A stretch of DNA of 62,281 bases, counting the filler, from Collodictyon triciliatum (Eukaryota): the NCBI GenBank assembly GCA_043381765.1. It is 9 parts of 9 records of this genome, joined end to end, with 100 filler letters (N's around TTAATTAATTAA, not from the genome) between each part and the next. Parts side by side here need not be neighbours in the genome. Positions count along the whole stretch, not along the records: positions 14,860 to 22,192 come from JBHJMP010003951.1; 8 more parts are not named here. One strand, written 5' to 3'. Under the pieces are notes generated by a model. The model was not told where the DNA came from. It searched no databases and was given only the letters and a program-made list of their open reading frames with translations. Below, piece by piece: positions 7,333-59,520 of this stretch. The position numbers and the translations under genes were made by a program. The stretch's first letter is position 1; each line of letters begins with the position of its first letter.

Positions 7333-7432
7333 NNNNNNNNNNNNNNNNNNNNNNNNNNNNNNNNNNNNNNNNNNNNTTAATTAATTAANNNNNNNNNNNN
7401 NNNNNNNNNNNNNNNNNNNNNNNNNNNNNNNN
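7333..7432. other. Artificial contig spacer
   Basis: N44-TTAATTAATTAA-N44, which gives stops in all six frames. Confidence 0.98.
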
Positions 7433-14759: not shown

Positions 14760-14859
14760 NNNNNNNNNNNNNNNNNNNNNNNNNNNNNNNNNNNNNNNNN
14801 NNNTTAATTAATTAANNNNNNNNNNNNNNNNNNNNNNNNNNNNNNNNNNNNNNNNNNNN
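14760..14859. other. Artificial contig spacer
   Basis: N44-TTAATTAATTAA-N44. Confidence 0.98.
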
Positions 14860-15822: not shown

Positions 15823-16558
15823 TTGGGAAGGAAGCTCAGGCTTGGTGGTGGCGAAGTGCCCGGAATCGATGAGGTCTTTGTGCGGGGTTTTCTTTTCTCT
15901 TGCTTTTCCTTCTCCCTTTTCCTGCCTTATCTTTTCTTTTCTCTGGGAAGGGAAAATAAGAAGATAAATTTGATGTTGCTGTGGGTTTACGGGAGATGGC
16001 AGCAAGGAAAGGTTGCGTCTTCTGCCTCCCAAACGAATCCGGCTGTATCTTTTCCTCCCAGGCTTTCGGCCTGCATGTTAAAATAGGGGGTGTTTTTTTT
16101 TTTAAAATATATACATATAAAATAAAAAAAATCAAACACCGCTTGGACTATTCTTCTTGCTTTTCGTATAAAGTTTTTTTTTCTCCTCGGACAAGAAAAG
16201 AAAATAAATATGTAAAAAAGTAAATGGGAGACTAAAATTAAATATCGGTTTTTGATTTAGGAGGAGTGAATGGAATATAGTTGAGCTATATTGCTGTTTT
16301 TTTGTTTTTTTTTGTTTTTTTTTTGTTTTTTTTTTGTTTTTTTGTTTTTTTAAGAAGGAAATAAGCTTTCCGGAAGCGACTTTGGGGTGGTCGCGGGATT
16401 GAGTTTGGGGCAGAGCACATCCCCGCGTTGAGAGCGTTTCTTATATGTCTTCCGTTTCTTATTATCGTTGCGCTATATTCCAGTTCTCTGCAAAGTATGT
16501 CCCACAATGCCCAAAGCAATATCTCTTGTGCGCATGCACCGCACAATCCATGGGAAAT

Positions 16559-16580
16559 AATAATCATAATAATCATAATC

Positions 16581-16677
<97 letters not shown>
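16559..16677. repeat. (AAT)n microsatellite
   Basis: Direct reading. Confidence 0.95.
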
Positions 16678-16679
<2 letters not shown>

Positions 16680-16984
16680 GCTGATAGCCAACAGGTTGAA
16701 AAAATAAATGTAGTGCAAGCGGGAATGCAAAGTGTGCTGTGAGAGAAACAATCAGAAAAGCAAGTTTGCAGCTTTAGTCCAAAATTGGTGTTTGGATACA
16801 TCAGGGCATGTGGTTGTCTGCAGCAGTCATCCCATGTCGGATGCATCTCCGGTTTGCCTTGTGACTCACGCGCTTTGCAGATCGGTGAATTATTCATTCC
16901 TGCATCTACTTGTGGGCTATCATCCTTCTACCTCTCTGCCCTCTCTCTGTCTTGTCTTTTTCTTCTATTTTCTCTTCATTTGTT

Positions 16985-17170
16985 AGCTAGAAGGGATGTA
17001 AAATCTTTCGATTGGCAAACTTCGTCCACTAGTATCCAAGGTCTCATCACTTTTTTCACAAAGATTGTGTAGTGGTGAAGTCTGCCAGGAAAGACCCAAC
17101 ACTTCTTGTTTTTTAGAGGAAGGTGTATGTTTTTTTTTTTGAAGGATTAAGAGAACTTTCTTGAGTATAT
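16985..17170 (-). ncRNA. Candidate Fanzor omegaRNA scaffold region (positional prediction only)
   Basis: Lies at and just downstream of the 3' end of the Fanzor ORF, where TnpB/Fanzor guide scaffolds are encoded. No fold was verified. Confidence 0.3.
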
Positions 17171-19000
17171 TTTTAGCGCTGTTAAAGTCCTTTGTCAAGA
17201 ATACACGTTGTTTGCTTTCTGAGCGGTTGCATTCTTTACATATGAGACATCTATACAACTATTTTGTATTTCCTTTCGGTGGCATGTATTCCAGTTCTTT
17301 TTCGCAGTTGCAACACATCTTGGAGGTTCTAAATTCACCTACACTAACTTTTCAAAACGTTTGGATAGTATTTTTCGTAATCCTCTTCCGATGGTTGGCT
17401 TAAAATGGTTTCATCTGAAATTTTCTGCTCCAGTCTCCATACGCCAGAGCAAAATCCTTGCCAAATGTCTTTTCGATTCGGTCCGTAAACAATGGTTCAC
17501 TGATATTTGTATTAACATACTGTCTCTATATCATCTTTCGAAAAGTTACGTGTTCATAAAATCTGGAAAGTTCTGTCTGGTATCCTGGTTTCATAGTTAC
17601 ATATTCTCGAAATTTTTCATAATCGACGGTGCATGAATTATGTTCACTCAGCTCTGTCTCTAAATCGATGAAAGATACTCTTGATGTCTCAAACTGCTGA
17701 TTCTCTTCAAAAGTCATGAGACCAAAAGAAACAGCACTTTGTTAAATCTGTTGTCATGCATATCCCTGAAGTATTATACTTTTCTTTTTTGTCGTAAGAG
17801 TATTTTGTGATTTTTAAGAGGTTTGCTATCATGCCTTCTTTGGTGTGCCGTGTAACGTAATTTCTTACCTGCCTCGTCCACCTTGTAAACCAAATTAAAC
17901 TTGTCTGCGTCCACTCAATCATTTTTTGTCGCTGATAAAGATAAATGCTCTGTTGAAAGTTCATCTGTAAAAATATGTTCTTGGTATTTCGATTAAATTG
18001 GAATTTTGAAATTGAAATGCCTTTCTTTTCAAACAATAATGACACCACCAAGCCGTCTGTTTGTATCATGTATTTAAAATCGCAGTCTCTTTGATGAAAG
18101 ACCCTATTATTCATTTCAAAGAACTTATCCCATAGTTTCTCTATGCATCCTGATATATTTTTCATTAATGATGTTTTCCAGATGATACTAATAAATCTAT
18201 CAAACTTGCAGTATCTAGAGTAATATGACATGGTATATTGGTAGTTCTTATAGAGATTGGTTGAAAAAGTTTGGCTCTAATGTCCTCAAAAATGCGATTC
18301 ATGTAAATCAGACATGGAATTAACTTATTTGGATTGACTTTGACGTCATATTCGATACCTTTTACAATATTGCCGGTAATGATATGATTCAAATGCATTT
18401 TAGTCCATTCTTTATATTGTTCCGGTATTTCGAGCTTCTTGGAGATGTCTTTTTTTTTAACTTTTGTAACTTTGCCTTTTGAATAGCTTCCGTAATATTC
18501 TCATCTTTAGGAACTGTTCGGTTTATAAAGCGCAGTAACCTCTTTACAAAATGCTCCTTAATATTTTTATGATAAGCTGCTAGCATTTGCTTCGCCAAGT
18601 ACGGTAATACATGAGACAGTCCAACAAACGGAAAGCGCTCTTCTCGGGACAAAAGGAATAGAAAATCATTGAGATAAAAGTCATCATGTCATTTCTCACA
18701 TATCTGGTCTTTTTTTTTTTTTTTAATCTTGCGGGTGTATCTTGTGAAACTATTCCGACTGTTTTTTAAGCGTACAAAAAAATTTTCAACGATTGTTAGG
18801 AGTTGTTGTGATTTCAATACGTAACATCTTGCAAACAGATAAGTGTTGGTAACCAAATTATAACACAATAAAACCGTATCGTTGATTTTTTCATAGTCAT
18901 CCACATTCTTTACAATCGGCTTTAGAGATGTTTTCACATTTAGATAGTCTGGTTCTACAGACTTTAGATTCCCAAACTCAAGACGCTTTCTTTTCTTCAT
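17100..19000 (-). pseudogene. Decayed Fanzor1 (eukaryotic TnpB-family RuvC nuclease)
   Basis: Fragments in order: VKTSLK; NIKEHFVKRLLRFIN; YDVKVNP..KLFQPISIR..IPCHITLDT; MIQTDG; RuvC-I-like VDADKFNLVY..LRYTAHQRR (~17840-17914); ELSEHNSCTVDYEKF..FYEHVTFRK; AYGDWS (~17430-17445); RuvC-II GEFRTSKMCCNC (~17305-17340); CKEC; RuvC-III KDFNSAKNI (~17168-17194). Multiple stops and frameshifts, no introns. Confidence 0.88.
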
Positions 19001-19100
19001 CTGAAAGTCTTTGTTTTACTTTTTCCTTTAGAAAACTGAGTTTTCAATTATTTTTTTTTTATTCACGACAGACTTAGCTGTTGGCGCCCGTGCCAACAAA

Positions 19101-19545
19101 TTTTTTTTCAACCACCAAGCAAGTATTCCGAGGTAAAGAGAGAAAAGTGATGGCGAGTGTGCCATCAGGGGAGTATGGAGATAGAGGAATAGAGGGAGAG
19201 AGAAAAGAGGAATAGGAAATGAAGTAAAGACCCTGGGGCTTGATAAGAGGCCCAGGGATTCCTTTCAGGATAGGACTTATGGTGAAGTCCTTGGAGGAGG
19301 GAAGGTAGCGGGCTTGATTATGTTTAGAGGGGAGTGGAAGAGGATGGGAATACTACTTTGGTGGCGCAAGGTGTTGAAAGGGTGGTGGACAGGAGAAGTT
19401 CGCATGGAGTTAGAAAGGCACTAGGTCGAGAGCAAAGACAACTTCTCTGCATAGTTTACGCACTTCCTTCCAAACCGCAGAGCGGTCTTTAGAGTATGTT
19501 TGTTGCATTTGGGATGTCTCCCAAGTGCTGATAATGACCTGAGTT
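19101..19545 (-). mobile_element. Probable 3' end of a non-LTR retrotransposon
   Basis: Short ORF tail, pyrimidine-rich UTR-like stretch and an A8 tail (T run 19101-19108). No diagnostic protein motif. Confidence 0.35.
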
Positions 19546-19892
19546 TTCAATTTTAATAAACTTTAGTCGATCAGTCAATTTCATAAAATAAAACAACTGC
19601 ACAAAATTAACTTCGTAAAATTAAGCATCCACCGAGACTCTCAAAATATGCGGATTGTGGTAAACAAACACACAAAGTTTTTTTTATAAGTGATTTGAGA
19701 CAAAATCCTGAGAGGCGATTCGGCGAGTTCAAAAGGACAGCCGTATAGCGATTGCGACTGAAAGTCAACATATCGGCCCCAAACAACATGATCACCGCCG
19801 CAAGTGAGGATAGTATGCTTTTTTAAAATGCATGTTTGGTGGCAGGTTTATGGGGTGGGTTCTGTCTGGGCCAAGGCAAGGGTTTGTTTGTA

Positions 19893-20740
19893 ATTTTTGA
19901 TTTTTTTCTTCCTTTATTCGATTCAAAGTGTAGCATGGTTATGCCATACAAAGGGGCGGGATGGGTGCGCGTGGGAGAGAGCAAACGTGAGTAGAAGACA
20001 CTACCGTGGAGAGAGTAGCACTGGAAAGAAATCTGTGATAGCAAGTTGTTCAGGTAAGCGACCCAACTGGTTGATTGGCTGCGTGGGTAGCAGGGGTTGG
20101 ATATGCTGTGGGAGATATCGCACGACACATTCCCACATCTCTCTTCGCTTGCGGTCAGAGTAGCGAAGAATGCGGCCGTGTTTCAGCAGGCTGTTCAGGA
20201 AGCTGTATTGCACGAGGCTTTCCAGCCTGGCTACATTGATTTCTCGTTCGGGTGAATCATTAGAGCGAGATAATGCGCGCACACTCCATAGGGACCACAG
20301 CATATGTCCCCTTGTGACTGTCCAGAGTATTCTAGAGTCGTGGGTCATTCGGTATCGTGCGCCAAATAGGATGTCAGACGCGCTGAGTCGGCTGGGAGCA
20401 TAATCAAGGTCATAGAGCATCTTGTGGGTAGATTCTGTCACTTTTTGAGCAAGAGAGCATTTCATAAATGTGTGTTTTGTTAGAGTCATCTCCACCATGG
20501 CACATGGTGCATTCTGGATAGGTCGTTGCTGCATGGACTACACGCGCGCACCTATCCACAGCTCTCTGGTTGAGATATTGAGCGTTAGGGCGTGGTGTTT
20601 CGGGAGTAGCTGACATATGCGGGCTTGCTTCCAGCTTTTGACTATCGGCGGGTCTATAATGCTTATAGTTTCGGCCCAACGACTTATTTTCTCCGTTTTT
20701 ACTTGGAGTGGAGGTGTGGGGTTTGTAAGAAATACAACGT
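19893..20740 (-). mobile_element. 5'-truncated L1/Tx1-like LINE (ORF2 C-terminus and 3' UTR)
   Basis: zf-RVT-like SWKQARICQLLPKH..LWIGAR. CCHC knuckle CTMC..H.FMKC split by a frameshift. LWSLWSVR, stop at 20001, then AATAAA (~19913-19918) and an A-rich tail. Confidence 0.75.
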
Positions 20741-21563
20741 GAAGAATAAATTTGTATCATGAAATAGATTTTCATAAAAACTGATCTTTTTCAGGGTATT
20801 TTTGTGAAAACTGATGATTATCCTGCAGAAAAAAATTAAATGAAACAATATTCAACCGGAAAAATGAATGTAAAATATGACGTCGCAAAAGCCATCCTCA
20901 TCAGAATTTGTGACGTGACTATTTATATTTCATGGGCCTTCATAGAGAATGGCTTTTTTCGTGTGACATAGGGTCTTGACGGATATTTTTGCTTCAAGCT
21001 TTCCACTTCGAATAATCCTTTTATATCGCACTACCGAGGCAAAATAGGATAATGAAAGCGATGGAAGTATAATTACGAGACCAGATTGAGTTTACCATCA
21101 ATAAAATTGTGGCCCGTGATAGTGGCTCCAAGAAATTTGCACAGAAAAGCGAACAGGAGAGAGGCACTGTGATGATGCAAAGGATGGGCAGCTCTATTCG
21201 GTTTTCAAGTTTGGGTCATAAGGCTCCCTTTTATTTTATTTTTTGTATTTGTATCTGTATCTGTATTTGTATCCCACACAACAAATTGTCTTTTTATAAA
21301 AAAAAATAAATTAAAAATAAGCGATGTACTTTGTAGTTTATCATGTGGGAAGCCGCCTCATGTTGTGCAAATTGAAATGAATTTAAGTACTCGATTACTA
21401 TGAATTACATATTTAACCAATAATCTACTTTTTCGGTCATGTTTTCGTCAACAGAAAAAAATGATTGTTTGTGATGGATGTTGTTTTCCGGATTCGTCGT
21501 CTGCATGTGGAAAATATAGTAGTATATCCGATATTCTCCGACTGCGGGTCGATGGTTGTATGA

Positions 21564-22192
<629 letters not shown>

Positions 22193-22292
22193 NNNNNNNN
22201 NNNNNNNNNNNNNNNNNNNNNNNNNNNNNNNNNNNNTTAATTAATTAANNNNNNNNNNNNNNNNNNNNNNNNNNNNNNNNNNNNNNNNNNNN
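22193..22292. other. Artificial contig spacer
   Basis: N44-TTAATTAATTAA-N44. Confidence 0.98.
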
Positions 22293-22925
22293 TTTTTTGT
22301 TTTTTTGTTTTTTTGTTTTTTTGTTTTTTTGTTTTTTTTGTTTTTTTTGTTTTGTGTTTTATGTTTTCTAATATTTCTGAATCACACCAAATGCAATAAA
22401 ACGTGGCATAAAGGCGAGAGGAAAAATGATCATTGATTCCGGAAGAATGAGCAGTGCAGTGACCGTGCTTCACACTTCGTGAGCTTCTCGACGTTGCGTT
22501 GTTGGACGCACTTATTTTTCCGATCAAATGATTTGGTTTTATGTGTGTTTATGTGTGTTTATGTGTGTTTATGCGTGTTTATGTGTGTTTATGTGTGTTT
22601 ATGTGTGTTTATGTGTGTTTATGTGTGTTTATGTGTGTTTATGTGTGTTTATGTGTGTTTTGTGCGTTGTGTGAATCAATACAGTGTTTTTGGTCAGTGT
22701 AACTTTCGTTATGGCACATATAATATTGCTGATATATCTGTAATATATGTTATTTATATTACAAAATTAGATTTGCTTCTCGTCTCTTGTAAAAAAACTA
22801 ACATATCTATATATTCCAGATTTATATTCGGAGAATGTCTGGGTTTCAGTGTTTTCGTCTTTTGGCAAGAATCTCAAATGCGGATCACAATCAACCCCGG
22901 TTCGTTTGTCTCGCCTTTGGAAACG

Positions 22926-25826
22926 ATGGACTGCTCTGACGCAAACACGCCACCCAGCAATTACCAACAGGAAGGAGCAAAGAGAACAAGACTGAATCCC
23001 GAAGACACAGTCGACCAAACAAGCTTCTCTGCAGAGACAATGGACGAGACCGTAGATCTAGTGGAGCACGCCAGGAACACATTAACGCTTACTTATGAAA
23101 GAGACAGGGAGGTTGAGGACTTGATCGATCAGGTTGCTTTTTGCCACAACAATTCCCTGCATTTATATGCCTTTAGTTACTGTTGTCCCTTTATTTTTTA
23201 ATTGTTGCATATATTGATATCATGCGCTCTTTCTGTTTTGTTTTGTTTTGTTTTGTTTTGTTTTGTTTTGTTTTGTTTTGTTTTTGTTTTTGTTTGTTTC
23301 ATATTGGAGGATTACCGTTTCGAAACACAGAACCACACATATGCATTCTAGCGTTCCTTCATCGACGCTATAAATCTATACTTGATTTGATTAATTGTAG
23401 AAGTAGTCCTACAATTTTTATGAAAAAAATAGTAATCCAATTAACTGGAACACTATCAGAAAAAAGAAAAGGAAACCAAACCTACATGCTGCCACACTTT
23501 TGTATATCATTTTCATATCATTCGAGAATACGGGACATTGATTACGTAGCGAACACAGCTGAATAACTCATCCGTTCTGCATAGCTGTACGACTACGGGA
23601 GTCAGATAGATGAGCTAATTGTCGACAAGTGTGCTGTAATCAGCACAACTCCTGACACTTTTCTGCAAGAGGCTCAGAACCAAGTATTTACATTTTTTTT
23701 TAAAAAAAAATCAGTAAAATGAAAACATACTGATATAAATGTTTCGAGTTTTCGCAATTTGTAAAGAATGTTCATCACAAGAGTGGGAATTAAAGTTTGT
23801 TTTTTAAAACAAAAAGCTGGGCTATGATACTTTTGAGTACACCTCAAACCTTACTTTTATCTTGATACTCACCCTTGCCCAGCTGAAAACAGGCCTTGCT
23901 GTGATAAAAAAGGAAACATCGCAAGATGAGGGGGGCTGTGGTCTGATTACCACGAAATACCATCACTTATTTGGTATTTACAGAAGGCTCAAGGAGACAC
24001 AATCCTTACCGTTATCGATTGTGTTTATTTCACAATTTACTTCACTGCTCAACTTACCAAGACCCAAGTGCGGAAGCTCGCTCTATGTGACCTCTGACTT
24101 ACCGACAGCGATTGACAAAGAATTGCTGTCCAAACACCCCGTCATGATATCTGCAGGATACATGCCCATTCCCTTCCACCGCGAATATATTTGGGGTCCT
24201 TCCTTCCGCGAACAAATGTTTGGTTACAGGAGTCTTCTTCAATTGTCCAATCCCCGAGGCCTGTGCATTCACCCAAAAACGCGAAATATTTATGTTGCAG
24301 ATTACGAGAATGATCGTGTTGTGGTTTATACCCCTCAATTTCAATTCCTTTTTTCATTCGGTTTGAAAGAGTGGAGTACGGTCGATATGAGATACCCAAG
24401 CAGTATCAACTTCACCTCAGACGGCAATCATGTCGTAATTACGGAGAAAATGACAAATCGTATTCGGTGGTTTAATCTTCAAGGAGACGTCAAGCGCACC
24501 TTGAGAATTGTAGGCTCGAAACCTGGAGAACTCAGAAATCCCAACAGTGCCGTTGTGGACAAGGACGGCAACATTTTTGTGGCAGACACAGACAACAGAA
24601 GAATACAAAAGTTTTCAGCAAACGGGGATTACATCAGCCATTTTGGAAACAGCATCGATGGGCATGAGCCTACACGTTATTCAAGTCTCTCAATCTCTAT
24701 GAGTGGAGAATATCTGTTTTCCATCTCGATAGATTCAAATCAGTTAGTCGTATTTGACTTGGATGGCATATTTCGACAGTCATATACAATCGAGAAGGCA
24801 TCCAACTTTTCGTTTGTGAGTTGTATCCTTGATAACCAATTTTTGGTCTCTTATCCCGAGTCACGATGTGTAATTGTCTACTCAAATCAAGGAGACGTGG
24901 TCTCGCGCTTAAACAAGATTGTCATAGGGGGAATTTCTATTCCAGATGAGAATACTATAATCTATACGAATGCCACACATTTGCAGAGAGAGCCTCTGGC
25001 TTCATTTCTGCAAGGAAATCAAGATTTTGCCCAGCATCGTTTCACGGTCAATGGTGGAAATGAAGCAGAGCAACACACTCCTGAAGGTATTTGTGTCCAC
25101 CCAGGCTCTGGTTGCATCTATGTTTCGATGCCAAGCTTTCACAAGGTTCAAATATATTCTCCAGATTATAGCTACATCGGAGCTATTGGAGAGGGCGATA
25201 TGCATCCAGTTCCACTTTCTGAACCTGCGGATATTATCATTTCGCCCTCGGGTGACAGAATTGCGATTGTAGATACCAATCCGCCGCGAGTGGTAATCCT
25301 CACGGGCCACCACAGACACCTGGCAACCGTCACGCTTCCTCAAATGGCTCAATACGGACCAAACGAATCCATTTCAGCCTGCTTTGATATCACAGGTTTT
25401 CTGTTTGTCAGCCACACAAACGCGGTGGACATACTAAAGTATGACAGTGAAGGTAATACCGTAGGGACAATTCCGCTTCGCCAAATTACAGGCCATGTCA
25501 GTATTTCCCACATGACGTGCATATCTAGAAATGAGCTTCTGGTCGCAAGTGGTCCACTATCGTCGATACTTTCGATTCACACGGAAAAATGCATTCTCAC
25601 AAAAACATCAAATATTGTCGTCCATTCAGATACCATATTCATCGGGCGAGGACCGAATGGAGGAATCATCCTGTGTGACCAACACGCAAACTCCTTTTCC
25701 CTCTACCTGCCCGATACATATAATCCACTTTTCTTACGCGCAGCCGCCCCCACAAAGTTTGCCTTGGACTCGAAGGGTAGGATACTCGCATTGTCTGCTA
25801 ATTCGTCGGCTGTGACGATCTTTTGA
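22926..25826 (+). CDS. NHL-repeat beta-propeller protein with a helical N-terminus
   Basis: Exons 22926 (or 22878)-23132, 23585-23683, 23883-25826. NHL motifs LSNPRGLCI..IYVADYENDRVVV, LRNPNSAVVDKDGNIFVADTDNRRIQKF and HTPEGICV, apparently forming two propellers. Confidence 0.85.
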
Positions 25827-26359: not shown

Positions 26360-27089
26360 ATAAAGAATCTCAGCGAACAAAATAAGAGGCAGATGGTGCG
26401 TGACTCCCCACTCTTCACTGCCAGAGTCAGACGAGAATGAACCGCTGCTACCTGAAGAGATTGGCAAAACCAACATCCAAAACTTCTACGCCGATGTGTG
26501 GAAGAAACGAGACTTTGACCGTGCAACCCTCGAGCGGGTAACAAACAACTGCTCTGTGGCGAACAAAAGGGAGGCAGAATCTATGGTCAAAGACATGGAT
26601 GACAGTGAATTGTGGAGCGCAATCAAGTCCATGCCGAAGCGCAAAGCACCAGGCCCTGACCGCCTACCTAGTGAAGCGTATGCCAACTTCTTCCAAGTCA
26701 TCAAGGCATCCCACCTGGGACTCCTAAACAGCCTGATTGCAGATGCAGACAACATCCCGGATGGCTTTACAAAAGCAATGGTGCGCCTAATCCCAAAGAA
26801 AGAGGATGCAACTGACCTCAGAGACTGGCGCCCGATATCTCTGCTCAACAACGACTACAAGATATTTGCCACAATCCTAAGAAACCGAATCTCTGATATC
26901 GCTGACAGGCTCATATCAAAGGAGCAAATAGGATTCATGCGTGGCAGGAACATCGACACAAACATATGGCTCGTGAACAAGGAATACATGGAATATCAAG
27001 TCTCCAAAGACCCACGCATCATGATATTCTACGACCTTGAAAAAGCATATGACTATGTGAACCATGAAGCCATAGAAATCATGGAATAG
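26360..27089 (+). mobile_element. L1/Tx1-clade reverse transcriptase fragment
   Basis: KAPGPDRL, LIPKK..LRDWRPISLLNNDYKI, EQIGFMRGRNI, DLEKAYDYVNH. Breaks off before the catalytic YADD. Confidence 0.92.
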
Positions 27090-29614: not shown

Positions 29615-29714
29615 NNNNNNNNNNNNNNNNNNNNNNNNNNNNNNNNNNNNNNNNNNNNTTAATTAATTAANNNNNNNNNNNNNNNNNNNNNNNNNNNNNN
29701 NNNNNNNNNNNNNN
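29615..29714. other. Artificial contig spacer
   Basis: N44-TTAATTAATTAA-N44. Confidence 0.98.
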
Positions 29715-37035: not shown

Positions 37036-37135
37036 NNNNNNNNNNNNNNNNNNNNNNNNNNNNNNNNNNNNNNNNNNNNTTAATTAATTAANNNNNNNNN
37101 NNNNNNNNNNNNNNNNNNNNNNNNNNNNNNNNNNN
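37036..37135. other. Artificial contig spacer
   Basis: N44-TTAATTAATTAA-N44. Confidence 0.98.
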
Positions 37136-58500: not shown

Positions 58501-59420
58501 ATAATTCCAAATTCGTATTGTTTTGTCGCTACCTCCTGATACGATTTTAGTTTTATCTGGGCTCAAACTAACGCTATTAACAGAACTTGTGTGACCTGAA
58601 ACTGTCAAAATCAAGCTGAAATCAGGAAAATTCCACATTTTAATAAATGCGTCTTCACTTGCAGAGAGAAATTTTGTTCCATCTGACACAATTGAAAAAC
58701 CGTTAATTGTAGCAAAATGTTCTGTATAAATGTGAATTGTCACTCCATTTGAATAATTCCAAATTCTTATTGTATTATCGTTGCTTCCAGAAATAATTTT
58801 TGAAGTATCTGGAGAAATGACAACTGTTTTGACGATTCCAGTATGTCCGCTGAATGTTCTTATCAAAGCTCCATCTGATATGCTGGTAAGTTTGATTGTT
58901 TTGTCGCTACTTCCAGAGACGATTTTCGTTCCATCTTGCGTGACGGAAATGCAATTTACTGAATCTGTATGTGCTTGAATATTTTGAACTACTGTTCCGT
59001 CGTTGATATTCCACACCTTAATTATTTTATCAGCACTTCCAGACACAATTTTTGAGCTATCAGGGGTCAAAGCTACACTGTTAACGATTCCAGTATGTCC
59101 GCTGAATGTTCTTATCAAAGCTCCATCTGATATGCTGGTAATTTTGATTGTTTTGTCGCTGCTTCCAGAGATGATTTTCGTTCCATCTTGCGTGATAGAA
59201 ATGCAATTTACGGAATCTGTGTGCACTTGAATATTTTGAACCATTCTTCCATCATCAATACTCCACACTTTGATTGTCTTGTCCACACTTCCGGAGACAA
59301 TTTTTGAACTGTCCGGGTTCACTGCCACTGCCTGTAAAACATCTGTATGCCCAGTTAATGAGCGAACTAAATCTCCATTATTCAAGTTCCAGATTCTTAT
59401 GATATTGTCTGAGTGCCCAG
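52580..59420 (-). CDS. Large intronless WD40 + Cys-rich (GCC2/GCC3, ephrin-receptor-like) + multi-TM protein, interrupted at 55304-55506; 5' end missing
   Basis: At least 13 WD40 repeats (GH..V..V...PD..KIVSGS.D.TI.IW), dozens of CxxCPxGT[FY]N units, and a C-terminal membrane domain (HYQVLSYL, YLKADMSIMC, FLVDGY..YWEVV). Two in-frame stops and one frameshift fall within one repeat unit. Confidence 0.85.
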
Positions 59421-59520
59421 NNNNNNNNNNNNNNNNNNNNNNNNNNNNNNNNNNNNNNNNNNNNTTAATTAATTAANNNNNNNNNNNNNNNNNNNNNNNN
59501 NNNNNNNNNNNNNNNNNNNN
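59421..59520. other. Artificial contig spacer
   Basis: N44-TTAATTAATTAA-N44. Confidence 0.98.

What the first reader, a model, noticed from the sequence alone, without database searches (positions are those of the whole stretch)
16985..19075. Near full-length fossil Fanzor1 RNA-guided nuclease locus
Seen: six small minus-strand ORFs plus intervening frames join into one ~600-aa protein, with all three RuvC motif regions, GDW and a CxxC..CxxC zinc finger in the right order. Established: this motif order defines Fanzor1/TnpB-derived nucleases. Inference: the C-terminus (CKECNRSESKQRVFLTKDFNSAKNI) recalls giant-virus-type Fanzor1s. No transposase lies beside it, so it looks like a non-autonomous element of an uncharacterised family, possibly with intact copies elsewhere in this genome.
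Basis: partly seen in the sequence, partly recalled or inferred. Interest (0 to 1): 0.75.

Follow-up and report, generated by a model that had tools for sequence, protein, structure and literature searches.

The report
Dead Fanzor1 transposon nuclease gene copy
This stretch is a decayed, non-functional copy of a Fanzor1 gene (a transposon-borne RNA-guided DNA cutter of eukaryotes and giant viruses), one of many copies of a repeat family, so it is a real but ordinary genomic fossil.

Summary
On the minus strand, 19000..16986 reads as one protein of about 636 positions in eight frame segments, with 7 frameshifts and 4 in-frame stops. It matches an intact 648-aa metagenome protein, P0003, over residues 1-632 at 56.6% identity.

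A profile of 21 intact relatives matches the three solved Fanzor1 proteins over their full length: Parasitella 5e-85, Spizellomyces 2e-84, Guillardia 1.6e-63. No chain named Fanzor2 or TnpB reached E<=1. All motifs are present in the right order.

Intact relatives are common on giant-virus contigs. There they sit in elements of about 2.4 kb with terminal inverted repeats and a conserved, covarying 3' guide-RNA scaffold.

The window shows no viral neighbourhood and no transposase. Contigs from public runs show a multi-copy family at 80-99% likeness. This copy carries a nested retroposon-like insert at 19048-19538 and abuts another repeat at 19902. Its terminal repeats are not recognisable, and the guide-RNA scaffold gives only a weak match.

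Verdict: a dead member of a known kind. Interest is low to moderate.

The parts
16950..19901 (-). Recognisable remnant of the Fanzor1-bearing element. Both ends are approximate, and the span includes one nested insert.
   Evidence: Sibling contigs cover from the bin 16938-17071 up to about 19898. There is no cover in 16268-16937. A loose end lies at 16952, and loose ends of another repeat lie at 19901-19904. Without the insert the span is about 2.45 kb, close to the 2.33-2.44 kb of most viral relatives.
16986..19000 (-). Fanzor1 pseudogene: eight frame segments, 7 frameshifts, 4 in-frame stops. Homology to intact relatives ends near 17100.
   Evidence: tblastn, profile hmmsearch, frame map and 56.6% identity to P0003, stop coordinates.
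18983..18997 (-). N-terminal basic KKRKR motif, which looks like a nuclear localisation signal.
   Evidence: Sequence. N-terminal NLS motifs are common in Fanzors (Jiang et al. 2023, PMC10530073, passages read). The resemblance to the NLS consensus is recalled, not tested.
17903..17914 (-). RuvC-I motif. The catalytic Asp is kept (17911-17909), but DPG has decayed to DAD and is preceded by a TGA stop at 17917-17915.
   Evidence: D364 and P365 are invariant in 21 of 21 relatives.
17430..17438 (-). GDW motif.
   Evidence: G521 is invariant and W523 nearly invariant in A1.
17351..17404 (-). Short frame island (FKPTIGRGLRKILSKRFE) bounded by two single-base frameshifts.
   Evidence: tblastn HSP 17407-17351 at 84% identity and profile positions 506-528. 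Sibling contigs differ by single-base indels at 17349 and 17407.
17319..17339 (-). RuvC-II motif GEFRTSK. The Glu at 17336-17334 lies six residues before the first zinc-finger Cys.
   Evidence: E555 is invariant. The shifted-glutamate criterion is from Yoon et al. 2023.
17229..17315 (-). Zinc finger CxxC ... CxxC (CCNC 17315-17304, CKEC 17240-17229), interrupted by a TAG stop at 17261-17259.
   Evidence: C562, C565, C587 and C590 are nearly invariant.
17166..17192 (-). RuvC-III motif KDFNSAKNI, with the Asp at 17189-17187.
   Evidence: R603, D604 and N610 are invariant in A1. The window has K in place of R.
16968..17092 (-). Possible remnant of the guide-RNA (reRNA/omegaRNA) scaffold. Only the first two stems are seen. 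The terminal stem and right inverted repeat are not recognisable.
   Evidence: Covariance models built from viral relatives: R1 gives 8.1 bits, E 0.78 in 5 kb. R2 gives 13.3 bits, E 2.2 in the whole window, rank 2 of 15. This is not significant on its own. The strand and position are the expected ones.
19048..19538 (-). Nested retroposon-like insert in the 5' leader. It has an A-rich 3' tail and is flanked by the 12-nt direct repeat TTGAAAACTCAG (19550-19539 and 19047-19036).
   Evidence: Sequence. Sibling contigs join 19037 to 19541-19707 and so lack it (table 5).
19541..19901 (-). Rest of the 5' leader of the element. Together with 19001-19037 it is about 395 nt.
   Evidence: Sibling cover 19546-19898 (record 24). 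Viral relatives have a leader of about 400-450 nt between the left repeat and the ATG.

Best explanation
This is a dead copy of a non-autonomous DNA transposon whose only gene is a Fanzor1 RNA-guided endonuclease. It sits in the genome of an unidentified eukaryote and belongs to a multi-copy repeat family.

What an active element does is inferred from characterised Fanzor1s and from the intact viral relatives studied here. The element expresses a nuclear protein of about 640 aa with REC, WED, a split RuvC and a zinc finger. From its 3' end it also makes a structured RNA. The last stem of that RNA pairs an internal segment with the right terminal inverted repeat, and the RNA runs on into the flanking DNA, which serves as the guide. 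The ribonucleoprotein cuts matching DNA next to a short motif, which is thought to help the transposon persist. Movement itself needs a transposase supplied in trans.

What is shown for this copy: the reading frame is broken 11 times, the DPG motif has decayed, a retroposon has landed in the leader, another repeat abuts the left side, the terminal repeats are unrecognisable, and the RNA scaffold is at best half preserved. It can therefore neither make the nuclease nor move.

The family's nearest intact relatives are metagenome proteins and genes on giant-virus contigs. That fits exchange of such elements between giant viruses and their eukaryotic hosts, but this is an inference.
For: Homology and family:
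- P0003 residues 1-632 map to 19000..17100, E 5e-77 and 5e-74.
- 885 proteins at E<=1e-3 and 213 at E<=1e-10.
- profile against solved structures gives 9cf0 at 5e-85, 8gkh at 2e-84 (profile 3-609) and 9cer at 1.6e-63.
- the single fragment hits 8gkh at 4.5e-5.

Decay:
- 7 frameshifts, 4 stops, DPG changed to DAD.
- the terminal branch of the window copy is 0.53, against 0.26 for its intact sister P0003.

Multi-copy family:
- 544, 222, 23 and 22 contigs were laid from four runs at 80-99% likeness.
- Siblings skip 19038-19540.
- Siblings carry single-base indels at the edges of the frame island.

No viral context: tblastx of the whole window against 80 viral loci matches only 17000-19000, apart from a few weak hits.

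No transposase.

Architecture of intact relatives:
- Intact ORFs of 595-661 aa (most 617-640) in most of the 80 loci.
- Inverted repeats of about 18-35 nt beginning T(T)ACACC, with element sizes of mostly 2.33-2.44 kb, in 34 loci.
- A 3' RNA with 25 predicted pairs, 13 of them with compensatory changes.
- That RNA was found at the ORF 3' end in 42 of 42 further loci.
- 1-2 copies per viral record.

Literature:
- Viral Fanzor1s in simple non-autonomous TIR elements, with the reRNA at the right end (Yoon et al. preprint, passages).
- Fz1 in protists and giant viruses (Saito et al., passages).
Against: - No terminal inverted repeat or target-site duplication was found for the window copy, so its ends rest on the cover of sibling contigs alone.
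- The RNA-scaffold match is at chance level when judged by score alone.
- Pfam's TnpB-type model is matched only below its cut-off, and P0003 itself matches no Pfam family at E<=0.01.
- The whole genome is not held, so copy number, intact siblings and host identity are unknown.
- The contigs laid come from metagenomes and from two coded organisms. They are not proven to come from the same species.
- Three of the frameshifts lie in or next to A or T runs. In principle these could be assembly errors.
Confidence: 0.93

Rival explanations
1. The gene is actually intact. On this view the breaks are introns, a variant genetic code, programmed frameshifts or assembly errors.
For: Three of the seven frame changes lie in or beside homopolymer runs: A9 at about 18455, the A-rich run at about 17790, and T5 at about 17975. 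All four stops are TGA or TAG, none TAA.
Against: - Homology continues directly across every break, with at most a few bases lost, so there is no room for introns.
- No genetic code removes frameshifts.
- Two different stop codons are used.
- The conserved DPG motif reads DAD.
- The leader holds a 491-nt insert that siblings lack.
- Neighbouring ORFs of 672, 926 and 1322 aa are open in the same assembly, so assembly quality is good.
- Siblings differ by indels exactly at two of the breaks.
Confidence: 0.03
2. The fossil is part of an endogenised giant-virus genome fragment rather than a cellular transposon copy.
For: The closest DNA-level context available for relatives is on giant-virus contigs. 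One viral sequence, L001, falls in the same 8-row clade as the window copy at 99% support.
Against: - tblastx of all 62 kb against 80 viral loci (851 kb) finds only the Fanzor region, plus a few weak hits at 1.5, 22.5, 39-41 and 52-53 kb.
- The neighbours are LRR, kinase, ubiquitin, NHL, Ras and WD40 genes and a LINE-type RT.
- Sibling cover stops at the edges of the element, as expected for an independent repeat of about 2.4 kb.
- The viral loci held are only about 6 kb of flank each, so this test is limited.
Confidence: 0.04
3. The protein is dead, but the locus still serves as a 'ghost' guide-RNA locus used in trans by intact sibling nucleases.
For: Ghost loci with RNA but no protein are described for Spizellomyces (Saito et al., passage). 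A weak scaffold-like match lies at the expected place and strand, 17092-16968.
Against: The match is 8-13 bits (E 0.78-2.2). About 64-66 model positions, including the terminal stem that closes on the right inverted repeat, are missing. No RNA run was shown to hold the stretch.
Confidence: 0.06
4. It is a Fanzor2 or a prokaryotic-type TnpB rather than a Fanzor1.
For: The weak Pfam match is to the TnpB/Cas12f-type zinc-ribbon model PF07282.
Against: The family profile matches only chains named Fanzor1, over their full length including the N-terminal half. The next hit, LaTranC, has E 0.1. Relatives are about 620-650 aa long, and no IS607-type serine recombinase lies nearby.
Confidence: 0.02

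Closest known systems
Fanzor1 nucleases with solved structures: Spizellomyces punctatus Fz1 (8gkh), Parasitella parasitica Fz1 (9cf0), Guillardia theta Fz1 (9cer)
   Same: Full-length sequence homology of the family profile, at E 2e-84, 5e-85 and 1.6e-63. The order of motifs is the same: RuvC-I (DPG), GDW-type motif, RuvC-II Glu just before the zinc finger, then RuvC-III. The length is similar.
   Different: The window copy is a pseudogene. The intact relatives share only modest identity with the solved proteins. The relatives studied here carry a distinct inverted repeat, T(T)ACACC...ATTTAAAACGCC. Assignment to a Fanzor1 subfamily (a-d) was not possible without named reference sequences.
Spodoptera frugiperda ascovirus Fanzor1 element (Yoon et al. 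2023 preprint, passages read)
   Same: A simple non-autonomous element on a large DNA virus that encodes only a Fanzor1 of about 600 aa. It has short inverted repeats, and its reRNA ends at the right end, with the repeat forming part of the last stem. The viral relatives of the window copy show the same plan.
   Different: It is a different lineage of viruses and hosts. The TTAN target duplication reported for that element was not examined here. The window copy lies in a cellular genome and is decayed.
Prokaryotic TnpB (IS200/IS605, IS607) and Fanzor2
   Same: Split RuvC with a zinc ribbon, and a guide RNA encoded at the 3' end of the element.
   Different: No chain so named reached E<=1 with the family profile. 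The protein is larger, has the Fanzor-type DPG motif and shifted Glu, and has no TnpA beside it.

Membership tests
Fanzor (TnpB-derived eukaryotic or viral RuvC nucleases) | Split RuvC triad D...E...D in order, with a CxxC...CxxC zinc finger between RuvC-II and RuvC-III | tested here: met
   Asp 17911-17909, Glu 17336-17334, CCNC 17315-17304, CKEC 17240-17229, Asp 17189-17187. The same columns are invariant or nearly so in 21 relatives.
Fanzor (TnpB-derived eukaryotic or viral RuvC nucleases) | DPG motif in RuvC-I (Yoon et al. 2023) | tested here: inconclusive
   D and P are invariant, and G nearly so, in the 21 intact relatives. The window copy keeps the Asp but reads DAD, as expected of a decayed copy.
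Fanzor (TnpB-derived eukaryotic or viral RuvC nucleases) | C-terminally shifted RuvC-II glutamate six residues before the zinc finger (Yoon et al. 2023) | tested here: met
   E-FRTSKM-C in the window. E555 and C562 occupy these positions in the relatives.
Fanzor1 | Full-length homology to characterised Fanzor1 proteins, including the enlarged N-terminal REC half, with a length of about 600 aa or more | tested here: met
   The profile of relatives aligns to SpuFz1 over profile positions 3-609 at 2e-84 and to Parasitella Fz1 from position 11 at 5e-85. The window read-through is 636 positions. The REC2 fold itself was not modelled.
Fanzor1 | Carried by a eukaryotic-type (non-IS607) transposon with terminal inverted repeats | tested here: inconclusive
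   Met in 34 viral relatives. For the window copy no inverted repeat or target duplication was found. No serine recombinase or other transposase lies nearby.
Fanzor1 | Structured guide RNA (reRNA, omegaRNA or fRNA) encoded at the 3' end and running through the right end | tested here: inconclusive
   In relatives: 25 pairs, 13 with compensatory changes, and 42 of 42 further loci hit. In the window: only 8.1 and 13.3 bits at the expected place.
Fanzor1 | RNA-guided double-strand DNA cleavage | not testable with these tools
   This needs biochemistry on an intact relative. The window copy cannot encode the protein.
Endogenous giant-virus element | Neighbouring genes of giant-virus origin | tested here: not met
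   tblastx of the window against 80 viral loci matches only the Fanzor region, apart from a few weak hits. Pfam finds cellular-type neighbours.

The most novel reading that the evidence does not exclude
The fossil may mark a young, still active, high-copy Fanzor1 transposon family that is shared between a free-living freshwater or soil eukaryote and giant viruses. On this reading, intact sibling copies supply a compact (about 640 aa) RNA-guided nuclease and many guide loci, and giant viruses act as the shuttle between hosts.
Probability: 0.2. Interest if true: 0.5.

Novelty: new member of a known kind. Interest (0 to 1): 0.25.

Why it matters
On its own the locus is a dead transposon gene, and it matters little for the biology of its host.

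Its value is as a pointer. It shows that a Fanzor1 family abundant on giant-virus metagenome contigs also multiplied in a cellular genome. That adds a case to the proposed virus-host traffic of RNA-guided nucleases.

The intact relatives found on the way have defined inverted repeats and a well-supported guide-RNA structure. They could be mined as compact genome-editing enzymes.

For genome annotation, the region should be masked as a DNA-transposon remnant with nested retroposon insertions. It should not be called as six small genes.

Tried and rejected
- Single ORF fragments against Pfam gave only chance-level hits.
- The own genome is not held, so siblings, consensus ends, target duplication and TAM could not be derived.
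With P0003 alone it gave one distant locus, L081.
- The cluster look-up gave no names or organisms for 10 relatives.
- Pfam family PF26935, which is precomputed on all nine relatives, is not in the local library, so its name is unknown to me.
- The search for a viral-type inverted repeat in the window gave 2 matches with 3 mismatches elsewhere, against 1.99 expected.
- A local alignment of the two presumed ends gave 9 nt only.
- The inverted pair 16694-16711 / 19096-19113 (18 nt, 83%, A/T-rich) was rejected as the element's ends. It does not fit the sibling cover or the viral architecture.
- The search for a target duplication of the repeat that starts at 19902 found only the query itself.
- Rfam gave two chance-level hits in 16400-20600. 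No tRNA was found in 16000-23000.
- No RNA holder was listed for the stretch. No run holds half of its words or more. The kind of run X4 ('RNA?') is a guess, so nothing can be said on expression.
- Parts of 16000-16937 had no contig cover.
- The maximum-likelihood tree with the default method did not finish in 288 s, so FastTree was used instead.
- Host identity was not determined.
Full report
**What is there**

The window looks like eukaryotic DNA. GC is about 37% and there are microsatellites. It holds long open frames for LRR, kinase, ubiquitin, NHL, Ras and WD40/Ephrin-receptor-like proteins, and a LINE-type reverse transcriptase. No whole genome is held for it.

On the minus strand between 19000 and 16986, the three frames together read as one protein. 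A read-through of the last 252 codons with X at the four stops (P0002) was searched against 5.8 billion proteins. It found nine longer relatives, the best being P0003 (648 aa, E 1.2e-65, 57% identity). A full phmmer scan of 1.84 billion representatives found 885 proteins at E<=1e-3 and 213 at E<=1e-10, many of 590-700 aa.

**Mapping the breaks**

tblastn of P0003 against the whole window covers its residues 1-632 between 19000 and 17100, in alternating frames and nowhere else. A profile of 21 intact relatives (A1) covers profile positions 1-609 of 626.

The frame map has eight segments:
- 19000-18455
- 18452-18180
- 18177-17977
- 17974-17783
- 17781-17743
- 17741-17409
- 17404-17351
- 17348-17100, with the frame running on to a stop at 16988-16986

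That makes seven frameshifts. There are also four in-frame stops: TGA 18691-18689, TGA 17917-17915, TAG 17528-17526 and TAG 17261-17259.

Read through with X at each break, the 636 positions are 56.6% identical to P0003 end to end and 39.7% identical to the closest viral ORF. Homology continues directly across each break, so the breaks are not introns. Two different stop codons and seven frameshifts cannot be removed by any genetic code. Neighbouring frames of 672 to 1322 codons are open in the same assembly, which argues against poor assembly as the cause.

**Motifs**

- an N-terminal KKRKR
- the WED-type TDG
- RuvC-I, with the Asp kept but DPG decayed to DAD
- GDW
- RuvC-II GEFRTSK, with the Glu six residues before the first Cys
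- CCNC and CKEC
- RuvC-III KDFNSAKNI

The corresponding columns are invariant or nearly so in the 21 relatives.

**What family**

Pfam gives only a sub-threshold match to the TnpB/Cas12f zinc-ribbon model: 15.7 bits against a cut-off of 26.3. P0003 itself has no Pfam match at E<=0.01.

The solved-structure sequences decide the matter. The single fragment already hits Spizellomyces Fanzor1 (4.5e-5) and Parasitella Fanzor1 (1.5e-4). The family profile hits Parasitella Fz1 at 5e-85, SpuFz1 at 2e-84 over profile positions 3-609, and Guillardia Fz1 at 1.6e-63. The next hit has E 0.1, and no chain named Fanzor2 or TnpB appears.

The DPG motif and the glutamate placed six residues before the zinc finger are the Fanzor signatures named by Yoon et al. 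(preprint, passages read). Saito et al. state that Fz1 occurs in fungi, protists, arthropods, plants and giant viruses (passages read). Jiang et al. describe four Fanzor1 families, frequent N-terminal nuclear localisation signals, and association with many transposon types (passages read).

**Relatives on giant-virus contigs**

In the viral contig collection, 346 of 585 candidate stretches encode a relative. The best 80 loci include many contigs named GVMAG and contigs of up to 230 kb. Most carry intact ORFs, mostly of 617-640 aa. Three large records hold one or two copies each.

In a FastTree phylogeny of 144 rows, the window copy pairs with P0003 (support 100). Both lie in an 8-row clade (support 99) with P0004-P0007, P0012 and the viral ORF of L001. 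The bulk of the viral ORFs (67 rows) form a separate clade. The window's terminal branch is 0.53, twice that of P0003 at 0.26, as expected for neutral decay. The tree has no named references and only midpoint rooting, so it shows neighbourhood, not direction of transfer.

**How intact elements are built**

In the viral loci the flanks are conserved from about 450 nt upstream of the ATG to about 90 nt past the stop. Thirty-five loci have an exact inverted seed of at least 12 nt. In 34 of them it belongs to an inverted repeat of about 18-35 nt that begins T(T)ACACC and continues ATTTAAAACGCC. Element sizes are mostly 2.33-2.44 kb. The number of loci examined was not printed.

The last 145-165 nt of the element fold into a conserved structure with 25 predicted pairs. 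Thirteen of these pairs show compensatory changes:
- a nested stem
- a hairpin
- a long-range stem that pairs an internal TTTACAC with the terminal GGTGTAA of the right repeat

A covariance model of this RNA finds it at the ORF's 3' end in 42 of 42 further loci. These include the divergent L001 and L002 (41 bits) and a 21%-identical metagenome relative, L081 (40 bits). Many of the 42 are close kin of the training set.

This is the plan reported for the ascovirus Fanzor1 element: a non-autonomous TIR element, with an reRNA whose last stem contains the repeat and whose guide lies beyond the right end.

**The window copy in context**

tblastx of all 62 kb against the 80 viral loci matches only 17000-19000, apart from a few weak hits. 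Forty-seven of the 63 ORFs of at least 75 aa between 9 and 27.5 kb show no transposase domain. The only hit is the reverse transcriptase at 26364-27086. The 16 ORFs left out lie in microsatellites, or in or over the NHL gene that was scanned.

No public run holds half of the stretch's words or more. Contigs from four runs, laid at 80% likeness or more, show a repeat family. The counts were 544, 222, 23 and 22 contigs. In X4 the likeness classes were 22 at 99% or more, 149 at 95-99%, 212 at 90-95% and 161 below 90%.

Cover begins in the bin 16938-17071, with a loose end at 16952, and runs to about 19898. Nothing lies on 16268-16937. Sibling contigs join 19037 directly to 19541-19707.

The sequence shows why. 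The segment 19048-19538 ends in an A-rich tail and is flanked by the 12-nt direct repeat TTGAAAACTCAG. It is a retroposon-like insertion into the element's 5' leader. Without it the leader is about 395 nt and the element about 2.45 kb, close to the viral elements.

At 19902 a different, very abundant repeat begins. Its depth reaches 2337 in X4, loose ends lie at 19901-19904, and its A-rich end is at 19912-19901. It either truncates the element or was its insertion site.

Sibling contigs also carry single-base indels at 17349 and 17407, the two edges of the short frame island. At least those two breaks are therefore private to this copy or its subfamily.

No inverted repeat or target duplication could be found for this copy.

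The RNA models give only 8.1 bits (E 0.78 in 5 kb) and 13.3 bits (E 2.2 in the whole window, rank 2 of 15) at 17092-16968 on the minus strand. This covers the first two stems and lacks the terminal one. The place and strand are exactly those expected, which makes a remnant plausible. The score alone does not show it.

**Verdict**

This is a near full-length but thoroughly dead Fanzor1 gene in the remnant of a non-autonomous element of about 2.4 kb. It is one of many copies and has later retroposon insertions. Its nearest intact kin are on metagenome and giant-virus contigs.

It is a new member of a known kind. Whether intact siblings exist, what the host is, where the exact ends lie, and whether the family is already catalogued all remain open.

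Noticed in passing
window 19048-19538 (minus strand): A retroposon-like insert of 491 nt with an A-rich 3' tail and a perfect 12-nt target duplication (TTGAAAACTCAG at 19550-19539 and 19047-19036). Part of it (19224-19540) recurs in contigs of two runs with the same foreign flank. No tRNA or Rfam match was found.
   Followed up: partly
window 19902 to at least 20540 (minus strand): A very abundant repeat (summed contig depth 2337 in run X4 for 19886-20000) that ends in an A-rich stretch at 19912-19901. It contains a 178-codon open frame, 20004-20537, with no Pfam match. In other contigs it is joined to internal Fanzor sequence (joints 18553->19902 and 18679<->19934).
   Followed up: partly
L003-L080 (viral contigs), about 450 nt upstream to about 90 nt downstream of the Fanzor1 ORF: Giant-virus Fanzor1 elements, mostly 2.33-2.44 kb, with T(T)ACACC...ATTTAAAACGCC inverted repeats. 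They carry a covarying three-stem 3' RNA whose last stem pairs with the right repeat. Whether this family and its RNA are already described was not checked beyond three papers.
   Followed up: partly
proteins P0003, P0007, P0012, P0019, P0022, P0033: Their longest contigs are only 2.1-3.6 kb, about the size of one element. This is what assemblers produce for multi-copy repeats.
   Followed up: no
window 7333-7432, 14760-14859, 22193-22292, 29615-29714, 37036-37135, 44583-44682, 52005-52104, 59421-59520: Paired runs of 44 N separated by 12 bases recur about every 7.4 kb. They cut through several open frames and look like masking, not assembly gaps.
   Followed up: no
window 16556-16677 and 16297-16351: An (AAT)n microsatellite of about 41 units and a T-rich 10-11-nt tandem array lie just downstream of the fossil.
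   Followed up: no
window 26364-27086 (+): Fragment of a reverse transcriptase (Pfam RVT_1, 1.6e-14), probably from a LINE-type retrotransposon.
   Followed up: no
window 52580-59472 (-): Two very long intron-free frames (926 and 1322 codons) that combine WD40 propellers with up to 18 Ephrin-receptor-like cysteine repeats and a multi-pass membrane tail.
   Followed up: no
window about 22500 and about 41000: Weak tblastx matches to flanks of the viral loci L079 and L006 (27-29% identity, 55-62 bits).
   Followed up: no
window 50030-50125 (+): Top hit of RNA model R2 in the whole window (16.7 bits, E 0.52). It lacks most of the model and is taken as chance.
   Followed up: no
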